Shown: one piece after another, positions 23,565 to 30,226 of the stretch | How positions within the stretch are numbered: position 1 is the first letter of the stretch | Layout of the letters: every line of letters starts with the position of its first letter | Assembly (NCBI GenBank): GCA_031835245.2 | Contig: JAVKOQ020000017.1 | Location: 310,001 to 363,048 of the forward strand | From: Balamuthia mandrillaris | Lineage: Eukaryota | Direction of reading: 5' to 3' | Length of the DNA stretch: 53,048 nucleotides | Program-made: the position numbers and the translations under genes | The notes under the pieces: generated by a model | What the model saw: the letters and a program-made list of their open reading frames with translations, nothing else | Told to the model about the DNA's origin: nothing | The model's database searches: none

Positions 23565-24012
23565 TCATCTTCGCTTGGTAAGGCCAGCAGGCGAAGGCAA
23601 TCCAAACAATCGCAATCTCGAGATACCTCCACAAGGGTATATCTTAAGCAGGGCATGGGTGCAGGTCTTGTGGCGTGCCTCCTCCATCACTTCAAACACG
23701 TGCTCCTGGTGAGGATGAAGCAAAGTGGGAGGGATCAACGTGAAGTAAGACGCTTGATGAAAGTCGTCACCGTCAAGACCTTCAGGAGCGAGGCAGCCCT
23801 CCAGAGAGAAGGCCACAGGGGAGTTGTTCTTGAAGTGGAGGGTGTCAATGCCAACCGTCACGATGTGCCCGGAGCGATGCAGCCTGACCACCGTCCAGTT
23901 CCAGACGGAGGAGAGGGGTCCTTTCATTGTGAAGATTTCATTTGGTTGGGCTGGTCGAAGTCTTGCTGTCTCCCATCCATCCCCTGTTTGTTTTTGTTAA
24001 CGAATTCGTTTG

Positions 24013-24049
<37 letters not shown>

Positions 24050-24716
24050 CGGTGAGCAGACAAACCCATGTTTATGCCCCGTCCTGGTTTGAGCATATTA
24101 CCAGGCAAGCTATAATGAGCGCTGCTGCTGGCCACCACTTGAGCATCAGAGCCACAAGCCAATTCCGTCAACTCTGGAAAGTTAAAGGATGACGGTAGTA
24201 CTTCCGTCAGTGTTGTGGATGTTTCACTCGCCTTCTTCTTCTTTGTTTTGCTCAGCTCTATTTTGGGATTCTTTGGAGGGACAAAGTCAGCGGGAAAACC
24301 GTTGTTGAAGTTGAGGGTTTGCAGCCATGCTTGCTTCAGTTGAAGGTCGATTCTAGCATCATCAGAGTCGCTCCTTCTACGCGGTTGCTCCAACGAGTCT
24401 TCCAACTCTTCACCGTAGAGCTCCAACGAGCAATGCCTCCATCAGGATAGCTGCAAAGACGAATGAAGCGAGTCCAAGGACAACCCTCACTCGCACTGCT
24501 ACTCTGGTCCTCCGCAGTTATCGTTGGGAAGTAATTTCTGGAGTTCGGTTTGAGGACGGAGCAAGGCACAGCGGTCACCCACTCAGCAATCTTGCGGCGG
24601 TTCACAATGTGTTCTTTGAGGCATTCAAGCCTTGCACCAGGTGCATGATTGCCATCAAAATGAGCCGTATCAACTGACGTTTGTATTGGATAGAAGGGAG
24701 GGACGAAGAGGGTGAG

Positions 24717-27549: not shown

Positions 27550-27977
27550 GGTTGCCGCGTTGGGTGGTTCCAGTGTTCCTCTTCCCGCGAAGAAAATGTT
27601 CCTTTGGCACCTTTTCCCCCTATTTATACTTACCTTTAATGGGAATAGTTTTAATGTGGTTTTCCTAAAAGAAAAACAGGAGGAAACCCTCGGAAAGTCA
27701 AAAGGGAAGAAATAAAACTCCGGTTATAACTCCTATTTCACGACTTATCTATCCGTAAGGTATTTGATTTTTAAGGTGAGTTACGGTTTTTTTTTTTTGT
27801 TGGTGCAGTTTTTTTTATTTTTTTCATTGTGACGCTTCACAAGCAAGAAGGAAACAGCAAAAAAAAAAGAGTAGCAGCTGCGTGGTGGCGGGTTGGCTGG
27901 TTTTTTTTTTTTTCAAGTAGCAAGTGGTGGTGGCGTTGGTTGCTAAGCAAAGAGGTGAGGGACTGAGGGACGAAACG
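27550..27977. promoter_or_regulatory. Putative bidirectional promoter shared by the malate synthase-allantoicase and allantoinase genes
   Basis: 428-bp AT-rich spacer between two divergent ATGs. Promoter function is inferred from geometry only. Confidence 0.55.
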
Positions 27978-30226
27978 ATGGCAAGCGTAGCGGAGCAATC
28001 AAAACAAGCGGTGCAGAGCAGCCTCCAGATCTTTCGTAGCTCGAGGGTGGTGTTGGACAGCGAACTGAGACCAGCCGCTGTTATCGTAAGGTACTTTGTG
28101 GTTTCCGTCCGCGTTTTTTTTCTTCTCTCTTCTCAGTTGTGTGTCGGCCCAACATCTAATGTTTTGGCGTTCTGCAGAGATGGTGTCATCCTGAAAGTGG
28201 AGACGTTTGACTATGAGCCTTCCGGAGAAGACGGAGAAGTCCAAGTTCTTGACTTTGGCGATCTGATCCTGATGCCTGGTTTGTACTTTCCTCTGGTTTC
28301 CAAAAAAAAAAAAAGAAAAGAAAAAAAAGGAGATTAACTGGTTAATATTGAACAAACAGGTCTTGTGGACAGCCACGTTCACATAAACGAGCCCGGCAGG
28401 ACGGAGTGGGAAGGCTTTCATAGCGCCACGCGGTCGGCCGCCGCTGGCGGAGTGACCACTGTCGTGGACATGCCGTTGAATTGGTGCGTTGTTGATTCCT
28501 CTATTTATTTTCTTTTGTTCTCTCTGCTTCTCTCTCTTTCTCCTTGAGCTTTCTTTCTTCCCTTGCTTATCTGTGAGTTGGTGACTGACTTTTTCTGTTC
28601 AACTTAAACAATGGATAGTTCGCCAGTGACTACCTCTGTAGAGGCCCTTGACACCAAGCTGGACAGCACGGAAGGAAAGCTCTGGGTTGATGTTGGTTTG
28701 TTTAGTCTCATCCGCCTTGACATTTCTGTCTTTTACTGTGTTCTCCTATTTTGTCCTCGTCTATTGTGTCAGCCAACCAACTTGTTTTTGACTCCGTTTT
28801 TTCTTCTCCAGCCATGTTGGGCGGAATAGTACCCGACAACATCGACCAAATCAAACCGCTTGTTGCTCAAGGAGTTGTTGGCTTTAAGGTACTTTTTATC
28901 CCTACCCTTTTCTATCGTTGTAACGAACCGGTCACTGACGTTGGATATGTTTCCAGGCGTTCATGGTTCATTCAGGAATTGAGGAGTTTCCTCATGTGGA
29001 AGTCAATGATATTCGGCGAGCCATGCAAGAGCTGGCTGATTTAGAAGAAGAGGGTAAGCTGTTTCTTTATTAAGTTGTCAATTGTAAATTGGTCGCCTTT
29101 TAATCGTTTCTCGTTTCTCTACCTACAGGAAATGGAGTCGTATTCATGTTTCACGCAGAAGTAGAAGAGCCCATTAGCAAAGCTATGGAAATAATCAAAG
29201 CTGAGAAGAAACCTCCCCACAAATACGCAACCTTCCTCGAATCTCGGCCAAGAGAAGCTGAGAATCGAGCTATCGCTACCATCATCGAACTGTGCCGAGA
29301 ATATAGAGTTCCGTACGTATTACAAAATGAGAGAAAGAATGAGTGCAAGCACACGACTAATTTGTTAACACCGATATGTTGTGAAGTTGTCACATCGTGC
29401 ATCTTTCCTCTTCGGATGCCATCGAGATGATCCGGCAAGCAAAGAAAGAGGGTGTGCCCATCACCGCAGAGACCACGTTCAACTACCTGTACTTCAAATC
29501 GGAGGAGGTGCCCGATGGCAACACCCTCTATAAATGCTGCCCTCCTATTCGCGAAACTGACAACCGTGAATACTTGTGGTACGTTTTATTCCTAGTTTTT
29601 CTAGTGATTGTTTTCGTTGTTTTCGTTTGAGTGTTTCTCTTTTGGTCGATACTGTTTCTCATAATTATGTTCATTGCCAATTACAGGGAAGCCCTCAAAG
29701 ATGATGTCATAGAGTTAATCGTATCAGACCATTCCCCATGTACCTGCGACCTCAAGTTATTGGATAAAGGAGATTTCTTGGAGGTACACTGGCACCGTGT
29801 TTTCACCCTATTTGTATGTACACCATTTTTTTTCTAACCCTACTCATGCACAAACAAAAGGCATGGGGTGGTATTTCTTCTTTGCAACTGGGATTAAGCG
29901 TTGTATGGACAGAAGCCAAGCGGAGAGACATCCCAATCCCCCAACTGGCCAAATGGTTGTGCTATAACACATCCAAGCTAGTGAAGCTGGCCGACCAGAA
30001 GGGCAGCATCAAGCCAGGCCTCAGCGCTGACTTTTGCGTGTGGGACCCCGAACAGTCCTTCACGGTCAGCGAGGGACGGTTGCACATCAAGAACAAGAAG
30101 ACCCCCTACGACCAACAAACGCTTTACGGAGTGGTCCAGCACACTATTCTCCGCGGACAGGAGATCTATGGCAAGGGTGACTTTACCACGGATAAGCCTT
30201 TGGGCCAAGTCCTCACCGCTCAGTAG
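27978..30226 (+). CDS. allB: Allantoinase (amidohydrolase superfamily; AllB/DAL1-like), multi-exon
   Basis: [127 protein letters not shown]. Confidence 0.95.

What the first reader, a model, noticed from the sequence alone, without database searches (positions are those of the whole stretch)
23565..30226. Two-gene allantoin catabolism cluster on a bidirectional promoter, convergent with the yeast DAL cluster
Seen in sequence: the allantoinase ATG (27978, +) and the fusion gene ATG (27549, -) diverge from a 428-bp spacer. Established knowledge: the S. cerevisiae DAL cluster groups allantoinase (DAL1), allantoicase (DAL2), ureidoglycolate lyase (DAL3) and malate synthase (DAL7), and clustering has been linked to controlling toxic glyoxylate. 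Inference: this protist has independently packed three of these activities (allantoin to allantoate to glyoxylate to malate) into two co-regulated, intron-containing genes. This could let a phagotroph recycle prey purines as both nitrogen and carbon.
Basis: partly seen in the sequence, partly recalled or inferred. Interest (0 to 1): 0.88.

Follow-up and report, generated by a model that had tools for sequence, protein, structure and literature searches.

The report
Amoeba allantoin gene pair, misnamed enzyme
Two head-to-head, spliced and expressed genes of an amoeba encode an allantoinase and a fused allantoicase plus malate-synthase-like protein, and the "malate synthase" half belongs to an unstudied subfamily that likely splits ureidoglycolate instead of making malate, so the pair would break allantoin down to glyoxylate and urea.

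Summary
Observation confirmed: ATGs at 27978 (+) and 27549 (-), 428 bp apart. RNA reads show both genes spliced, with the spacer nearly silent. The + gene is an allantoinase, identical to an NCBI Balamuthia mandrillaris protein. The - gene fuses a malate-synthase-like domain to allantoicase; this window carries a 1-base frameshift in it that four other studies lack. The interpretation needs correcting. The MS-like domain fails the malate synthase A model (203-268 bits, cutoff 594.5, five homologs) and sits in a separate 'W-H-D' clade whose long members are all joined to purine-catabolic modules. It likely acts as ureidoglycolate lyase, a DAL3 analogue rather than DAL7; untested. The fusion is conserved in Acanthamoeba, but linkage to allantoinase is not. 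Both genes swing 14-20-fold together across three RNA runs while neighbours stay flat. This scan had already noted the clade's four-module bacterial form on other DNA (five notes); the amoebal two-module form was not listed. New variant of a known kind.

The parts
27978..30226 (+). Allantoinase gene (metal-dependent AllB/DAL1 type), 475 aa; exons 27978-28090, 28178-28278, 28360-28483, 28619-28695, 28812-28888, 28957-29053, 29129-29312, 29387-29578, 29687-29783, 29861-30226
   Evidence: TIGR03178 525.5 bits vs cutoff 357.85; best PDB hits are allantoinases
23565..27549 (-). Fusion gene, malate-synthase-like (W-H-D clade) + allantoicase, 1132 aa read with X at the break; exons 27549-26676, 26599-26197, 26086-25824, 25747-25531, 25433-24899, 24834-24756, 24673-24066, 23983-23565
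   Evidence: 44-53% identical over about 1090 columns to five full-length homologs
27040..27549 (-). N-terminal extension (about 170 aa, approximate end); aa 56-170 are shared with the other fusion proteins; no PTS2 pattern match in the first 120 aa
25139..27040 (-). Malate-synthase-like domain (TIM barrel + C-domain; limits approximate); candidate ureidoglycolate lyase
   Evidence: PF01274 and PF20659; PDB 3cuz/3cux; residue tables; tree
23598..25021 (-). Allantoicase domain, two PF03561 repeats
   Evidence: 42 of 80 columns invariant in 69 bacterial allantoicases are kept in 6 of 6 fusions, 15 of 80 in none
24424..24425 (-). One-base frameshift in this window near the end of allantoicase repeat 1; premature stop after aa 902
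   Evidence: one more base in X18 (34 of 37 reads), X11, X3 and X5; not in the X1 contig nor in 3 X17 reads
27550..27977 (.). 428-bp spacer between the start codons, 41% GC; nearly untranscribed core about 27560-27885; presumed shared promoter (inferred)

Best explanation
The locus is a head-to-head pair of expressed genes, an allantoinase and a malate-synthase-like/allantoicase fusion, that likely runs three consecutive steps: allantoin to allantoate (allantoinase), allantoate to ureidoglycolate plus urea (allantoicase domain), and ureidoglycolate to glyoxylate plus urea (the malate-synthase-like domain, predicted to be a lyase, not a malate synthase). Shown: gene structures, expression, allantoinase family membership, domain order, and that the MS-like domain belongs to a separate clade marked by W-H-D before the Mg-binding Asp. 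Inferred: allantoicase activity (core motifs kept), lyase activity, passing of unstable ureidoglycolate between the fused domains, and a shared promoter. The fusion is old and shared with Acanthamoeba; the adjacency to allantoinase is likely lineage-specific. In this window's haplotype the allantoicase half would be dead if the frameshift is real.
For: Allantoinase passes TIGR03178 and fails the DHOase and hydantoinase cutoffs. Five fusion homologs score 203-268 on TIGR01344 (cutoff 594.5; bacterial control 779). Tree: 32 W-H-D rows split from 28 MS/MS-ICL rows, SH-aLRT 100, about 1.6 changes per column (quick method). The glyoxylate/Mg core (E. coli numbering R166, E250, D278, D447, W365) is kept in 30 of 30 W-H-D rows. 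In the 7 two-module rows the CoA-site positions drift: K101 0/7, M102 0/7, N105 2/7, G96 4/7, H368 4/7, against 51, 53, 54, 55 and 53 of 55 in canonical MS (G96, M102 and the other CoA-site residues from PMC3112382; K101, N105 and H368 are my own picks of neighbouring invariant positions). All 16 W-H-D proteins of 1332-1775 aa carry allantoicase, 11 of 16 OHCU decarboxylase, 15 of 16 a beta-lactamase-fold module, so a lyase role closes an unbroken run of steps. Precedent: a eukaryotic MS paralogue is a proven ureidoglycolate lyase without MS activity (PMC10120013 sections 10-11); Cryptococcus fuses allantoicase to a DAL3-type enzyme (PMC3646786 passages). Acanthamoeba has a separate mitochondrial MS-ICL for its glyoxylate cycle (passages). 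Co-variation: between X18 and X19 the fusion falls 20-fold and allantoinase 14-fold, while elongase changes 1.5-fold and thioesterase 1.3-fold.
Against: No activity was measured. The Balamuthia protein itself keeps 6 of the 7 CoA-site residues named in PMC3112382 (I94, T95, G96, M330, P369, C438; M102 is Ile), and the 23 other W-H-D rows mostly keep K101 (15), M102 (15), N105 (19), H368 (22) and P369 (23). The zebrafish lyase marks are not met: W365 is kept and R276 becomes Trp, not Ile. The two positions before the Mg-binding Asp also differ between true malate synthases A, G and H, so W-H alone proves nothing. A low TIGR01344 score shows divergence, not loss of activity. Repeat 2 of the allantoicase has Cys for an otherwise invariant Asp in 6 of 6 fusions, though 3 four-module proteins and one stand-alone allantoicase share it. 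Co-expression rests on three runs of one study, with unknown conditions and low depth. Linkage is absent in Acanthamoeba. The Balamuthia fusion has no PTS1 (ends TKRR; no indel seen in 4 runs), unlike most two-module homologs.
Confidence: 0.55

Rival explanations
1. The domain still uses acetyl-CoA: it is a divergent malate synthase, or a bifunctional lyase/synthase that takes ureidoglycolate to malate in one active site; in the pure-MS case ureidoglycolate would decay spontaneously or be cleaved by the allantoicase.
For: Catalytic Arg, Asp and Mg ligands kept in 30 of 30; most CoA-site residues kept in Balamuthia and in the four-module group. Ureidoglycolate decays spontaneously to glyoxylate (PMC3793230 passage). 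PMC10120013 proposes a bifunctional MS/UGL ancestor. MS genes occur in purine operons and in the DAL cluster.
Against: CoA-site positions are unconstrained among the seven two-module orthologs; 65 of 177 MS-invariant columns are kept in none of 6 fusions; Acanthamoeba has another MS; 0 of 80 bacterial allantoicase loci had an MS gene on the DNA held, of which only 37 were 8 kb or longer.
Confidence: 0.3
2. The adjacency is a chance neighbour pair in a compact genome; the genes are co-regulated, if at all, in trans, and the spacer is two back-to-back promoters with no selective meaning.
For: No linkage in Acanthamoeba. Head-to-head pairs are not rare here: MICU1-like and MCU lie about 550 bp apart in the same window. 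Only one GATAAG-type site in the spacer against 0.23 expected.
Against: The neighbour is the enzyme for the directly preceding step, which is unlikely among some 10^4 genes (gene number recalled, no call; many pathways could give such a pair). The other short-spaced divergent pair I checked in the window also joins functional partners. Joint expression swing.
Confidence: 0.3
3. The MS-like domain is non-catalytic or does another job (scaffold, glyoxylate sensor, or a different ureide reaction).
For: Long branch and many fixed changes around the active site (R168E, T251N, K353F, E356Q, I453R).
Against: Complete conservation of the metal ligands and catalytic acid/base over a clade with deep internal branches argues for catalysis on a glyoxylate-like substrate.
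Confidence: 0.12
4. The pair is a bacterial operon taken up in one piece.
For: 15 of 80 bacterial allantoicase loci carry an allantoinase-like gene, some divergently; the W-H-D clade has members said to be bacterial in earlier scan notes (not tested here).
Against: The allantoinase groups with dictyostelid (97) and then frog (97) enzymes, apart from 39 bacterial or unnamed rows (quick tree; 53 of 120 hits used); 9 and 7 introns; no linkage in Acanthamoeba. Transfer of the fusion gene alone is not excluded.
Confidence: 0.04

Closest known systems
Eukaryotic malate-synthase-like ureidoglycolate lyase (zebrafish DrMSL/UGL; PMC10120013)
   Same: MSA fold, glyoxylate site kept, R276 replaced, association with allantoicase; the published UGL group includes Amoebozoa.
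   Different: The published enzyme is stand-alone (62.5 kDa) with R276I, W365M and no conserved CoA site; here it is fused, has R276W/W277H, keeps W365 and partly keeps the CoA site. No Ile-Trp-Asp protein is among the 147 new hits, so a separate origin is possible.
[quoted passage not shown]
   Same: One polypeptide for allantoate to glyoxylate, with proposed channelling.
   Different: The partner there is the DAL3-type enzyme, in two copies; its DAL genes are not clustered.
Saccharomyces cerevisiae DAL cluster
   Same: Allantoinase physically next to downstream allantoin genes, assembled in one lineage from scattered genes.
   Different: Six genes including permease, racemase, DAL3 and a genuine malate synthase; here two genes and no permease or racemase among the Pfam hits of the window (150 of 167 ORFs of 95 aa or more scanned); the MS-like part is likely the DAL3 analogue, not DAL7.
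Malate synthase A (E. coli AceB, PDB 3cuz; TIGR01344)
   Same: Fold, Mg ligands, catalytic Arg and Asp.
   Different: About 30% identity, less than half the model's cutoff, an 8-9 residue longer hairpin before D447, an N-terminal extension, fused partners.
Acanthamoeba castellanii ACA1_201370 / ELR19769 / UniProt L8H2M4
   Same: Ortholog, 51% identical over the whole length; annotated 'allantoicase repeat domain containing protein' and 'malate synthase'.
   Different: Not next to allantoinase; ends in SAL; no functional study found in my searches.

Membership tests
Allantoinase AllB/DAL1 (TIGR03178) | Whole-protein score above the curated cutoff, above DHOase/hydantoinase models | tested here: met
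   525.5 vs 357.85; TIGR00857 241 vs 279, TIGR02033 199 vs 393
Allantoinase AllB/DAL1 (TIGR03178) | Metal-site residues and grouping with known allantoinases | tested here: met
   HxH, Lys, two His and Asp align with 3hm7/3e74 (residue roles recalled); groups with dictyostelid and frog allantoinases
Malate synthase A (TIGR01344) | Score above cutoff 594.5 | tested here: not met
   203-268 for 5 full-length homologs, control 779; the window's own spliced protein was not scanned
Malate synthase A (TIGR01344) | Catalytic R166/D447 and Mg ligands E250/D278 | tested here: met
   30 of 30 W-H-D rows
Malate synthase A (TIGR01344) | Conserved acetyl-CoA site | tested here: inconclusive
   6 of 7 named residues kept in Balamuthia, but variable in orthologs
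Malate synthase A (TIGR01344) | CoA release from acetyl-CoA + glyoxylate | not testable with these tools
   needs an assay
Eukaryotic MS-like ureidoglycolate lyase (UGL group) | R276I and W365M | tested here: not met
   R276W and W365 kept in 30 of 30
Eukaryotic MS-like ureidoglycolate lyase (UGL group) | No conservation at the acetyl-CoA site | tested here: inconclusive
   relaxed in the two-module group, largely kept in the four-module group
Eukaryotic MS-like ureidoglycolate lyase (UGL group) | 2-aa insertion at the site interface | not testable with these tools
   its place is in SI Fig. S14, which could not be read
Eukaryotic MS-like ureidoglycolate lyase (UGL group) | Placement in the UGL clade | not tested
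   no recognised UGL sequence came up, so none is in the tree
Eukaryotic MS-like ureidoglycolate lyase (UGL group) | Peroxisomal targeting signal | tested here: not met
   Balamuthia fusion ends TKRR; of 6 full-length two-module homologs 2 end AKL/AKM, 3 SAL/SAL/ASL, 1 none
Allantoicase (TIGR02961, PF03561) | Two repeats with conserved motifs; score above cutoff 277.9 | tested here: inconclusive
   two repeats met; scores 215-276, under the cutoff; core motifs kept, one invariant Asp is Cys; frameshifted in this window
DAL-type metabolic gene cluster | Adjacent non-homologous genes of one pathway | tested here: met
DAL-type metabolic gene cluster | Linkage conserved in relatives | tested here: not met
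   Acanthamoeba Neff, the one relative testable
DAL-type metabolic gene cluster | Co-regulation from a shared promoter | tested here: inconclusive
   joint swing in 3 runs; no start-site data

The most novel reading that the evidence does not exclude
The W-H-D clade is a second, independent recruitment of the malate synthase fold for ureidoglycolate (as a lyase, or as a one-site ureidoglycolate-to-malate enzyme). The amoebal gene is a cut-down form of a four-module urate polyprotein that lost its OHCU decarboxylase and beta-lactamase-fold modules. In Balamuthia a classical allantoinase has moved in head-to-head exactly where the beta-lactamase module is missing, a natural swap that points to that module being an unrecognised serine-type allantoinase.
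Probability: 0.4. Interest if true: 0.78.

Novelty: new variant of a known kind. Interest (0 to 1): 0.6.

Why it matters
It would correct a standing annotation ('malate synthase' in Acanthamoeba) and supply the ureidoglycolate step of purine breakdown in free-living amoebae, with an enzyme subfamily for which my paper searches found no study. It gives a directly testable case for the open question raised in PMC10120013, whether a bifunctional malate synthase/ureidoglycolate lyase exists. It also shows pathway compaction by two routes, an old fusion and a recent head-to-head pairing. As a parallel to the yeast DAL cluster it is weaker than first scored: two genes, one lineage, no conserved linkage.

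Tried and rejected
No whole genome is held, so Balamuthia could not be searched for uricase, urease, a DAL3/AllA-type lyase or a second MS. No RNA holder was listed among indexed runs; raw RNA runs of the same species label were laid instead. The metagenome scan returned 80 stand-alone-type allantoicase loci and no amoebal contig, so synteny beyond Acanthamoeba stayed untested. A G-x-N-x-G-W-H-D-Y DNA pattern in GTDB gave 37 matches, 0 of 37 related to the fusion; one lay in another frame of a malate synthase G gene; the pattern could not match the four-module group, which has a different preceding motif. W-H-D proteins were not found in 401, 401 and 201 sampled genomes of three phyla (no positive control) or in plasmids. 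The ESM Atlas put bacterial MS-family and eukaryotic 'malate synthase-like' clusters level at 0.93: not discriminating. A structure prediction had not finished, so there is no model and no fold search. A weak AmiS/UreI hit at 33663-33947 is intron noise of the MICU1-like gene. A PTS1 hidden by a 3' indel was rejected. A Balamuthia transcriptome supplement gave 0 hits in one 7.7-kb file. PMC2578798 is not held. The allantoicase tree hints that the two- and four-module forms share their allantoicase too, but it carries a long-branch warning. Paper searches for such a fusion listed none by title or start of abstract; most subscription papers are outside the library.
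Full report
Observation. The two start codons lie at 27978 (+) and 27549 (-), with 428 bases between them. The + gene has ten exons and gives 475 aa. Its last exon is 100% identical to NCBI KAL6075987.1, 'Allantoinase AllB [Balamuthia mandrillaris]', and the whole entry matches my model by eye. The - gene has eight exons. RNA reads show all nine + gene introns and five of seven - gene introns as joints, a sixth as a loose end; six joint rows were not displayed. 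The malate-synthase C-domain runs into the first allantoicase repeat inside one exon, so the fusion is real. The spacer bin is almost free of reads. Start sites could not be mapped.

As written, the fusion changes frame at 24424 and stops after aa 902 of 1132, losing the second allantoicase repeat. Runs X3, X5, X11 and X18 (34 of 37 reads), from four studies, carry one more base there and an open frame. The contig of X1, the closest holder, does not, nor do 3 reads of X17. Window and X1 differ at ten coding sites in this stretch, nine of them synonymous, so they look like two real haplotypes that share the deletion. Yet all five of their differences downstream of the break are synonymous, which argues against a long-dead 3' half. 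A recent null allele and a shared sequencing error are about equally likely (inference). The species as a whole has the intact gene.

The amidohydrolase is an allantoinase. It scores 525.5 on TIGR03178 (cutoff 357.85) and stays under the dihydroorotase and hydantoinase cutoffs; its three best PDB matches are allantoinases. In a quick tree of 53 of the 120 hits it groups with dictyostelid enzymes (97) and then frogs (97), apart from the bacterial and most unnamed rows. That fits vertical inheritance, not an imported operon.

The fusion is older than the pair. Five full-length homologs of 1038-1110 aa came up and a sixth later. One cluster holds Acanthamoeba castellanii ELR19769. In the Acanthamoeba annotation table (PMC7468528, supplement file 8, cut when stored) this gene is ACA1_201370, between an RCC1-like and a hypothetical gene, while allantoinase is ACA1_091040 and a stand-alone OHCU decarboxylase is ACA1_069970.

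What the 'malate synthase' is. Five homologs score 203-268 on the malate synthase A model, cutoff 594.5, against 779 for a bacterial control. A search of the 50% library placed, right after the fusions, 16 proteins of 1332-1775 aa with the same MS-like domain plus allantoicase (16 of 16), a beta-lactamase-fold module (15 of 16) and OHCU decarboxylase (11 of 16 at E up to 1e-4); eight shorter relatives lack allantoicase and may be fragments or stand-alone forms. The ESM Atlas holds a 179-member cluster with MS, beta-lactamase and OHCU decarboxylase domains, taxa not recorded. All these share W-H before the Mg-binding Asp, and 32 such rows split from 28 MS/MS-ICL rows with SH-aLRT 100 on a branch of about 1.6. 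Using E. coli numbers taken from the alignment, R166, E250, D278, M330, W365 and D447 are kept in 30 of 30, while E93T, R276W, W277H, E356Q and I453R are fixed. In the seven two-module rows the CoA-side positions drift (K101 0/7, M102 0/7, N105 2/7, G96 4/7, H368 4/7; canonical MS 51-55 of 55).

Why a lyase is the best guess. PMC10120013 (passages and sections 10-12 read; supplement unreadable) showed that a eukaryotic MS paralogue, found in Amoebozoa among others, cleaves (S)-ureidoglycolate and has no MS activity. Cryptococcus fuses allantoicase to a DAL3-type enzyme (PMC3646786 passages). Acanthamoeba runs its glyoxylate cycle with a separate mitochondrial MS-ICL (PMC13632651 and PMC13632647 passages). 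With a lyase, the four-module protein would be four consecutive steps and the Balamuthia pair three.

What speaks against it. The Balamuthia protein keeps six of the seven CoA-site residues named in PMC3112382 (passages and section 10), and the four-module group keeps most of them too. The zebrafish marks R276I and W365M are not met. Positions 276-277 also vary among true malate synthases A, G and H. No recognised UGL sequence came up, so I could not place the clade against the published UGL group; none of the 147 new hits has Ile-Trp-Asp, a hint of separate origin only. I give lyase 0.55, malate synthase or bifunctional 0.3, other 0.12-0.15. I do not file it as a member of malate synthase A or of the UGL group; it likely works like the latter.

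Regulation. Mean depth in X17, X18 and X19 is 9.8, 22.3 and 1.1 for the fusion and 5.2, 11.4 and 0.8 for allantoinase; the flanking elongase gives 18.2, 24.2 and 15.7 and the thioesterase 0.6, 0.8 and 1.0. The two genes move together and their neighbours do not. This is three runs of one study under unknown conditions, so it is a hint. One GATAAG-type site in the spacer (0.23 expected) is not evidence. Four Acanthamoeba fusion transcripts fall in a module that rises in early encystment (PMC9283445, supplement file 6, cut); no allantoinase row was visible there.

Localisation. Five of six two-module homologs end in a PTS1 or PTS1-like tripeptide (consensus recalled); the Balamuthia protein does not, and four runs show no indel at its 3' end. 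Its compartment is open.

Novelty. The Acanthamoeba fusion has been in databases under automatic names. Seven paper searches listed no study of it (listings and the passages named above only). Five earlier notes of this scan describe the four-module form on other DNA with the same lyase reading and a candidate allantoinase role for the beta-lactamase module; they are unchecked AI notes and no support. A sequence look-up with the Acanthamoeba-type fusion and a look-up by place found nothing. This locus adds the eukaryotic two-module form, the clade link, and a classical allantoinase next door where the beta-lactamase module is absent. Verdict: real, moderately interesting, a new variant of a known kind; 0.6.

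Noticed in passing
window 32177-34276 (-) and 34827-36055 (+); start codons approximate: A MICU1-like gene and the mitochondrial calcium uniporter MCU lie head-to-head about 550 bp apart: a second divergent pair of functional partners in this window. The same arrangement in vertebrates is recalled, from no call; one paper search found nothing.
   Followed up: partly
proteins P0207-P0226: Four-module family (MS-like, OHCU decarboxylase, beta-lactamase fold with an S-x-x-K motif in 14 of 16, allantoicase). Five members of one subclade end in ARL, AAL, SNL, SKL or SKM, so eukaryotes may carry it too; taxa unknown.
   Followed up: partly
window 24387-24430: The frameshift deletion makes an 11-base stretch identical to one 33 bases away, so a templated change or an assembly artefact is possible (context printed).
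   Followed up: no
proteins P0017-P0028, P0141; loci L001, L025, L033, L039, L060: Dictyostelid allantoinases are fused to OHCU decarboxylase, and five metagenomic allantoicases are fused to OHCU decarboxylase: fusions recur along this pathway.
   Followed up: partly
Acanthamoeba ACA1_220750-220780 (PMC7468528, supplement file 8): Urease and two accessory genes sit together; urate oxidase (ACA1_220120) has a nearby locus number.
   Followed up: no
window about 21670-23425 (+) and 30727-31701 (-): The flanking genes are an acyl-CoA thioesterase (4HBT) and a fatty-acid elongase (ELO), both convergent with the pair and unrelated to purines.
   Followed up: partly
P0009 (ELR19769), about aa 376-398: The Acanthamoeba NCBI model seems to retain intron sequence that is absent from Logan members of its cluster.
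   Followed up: no
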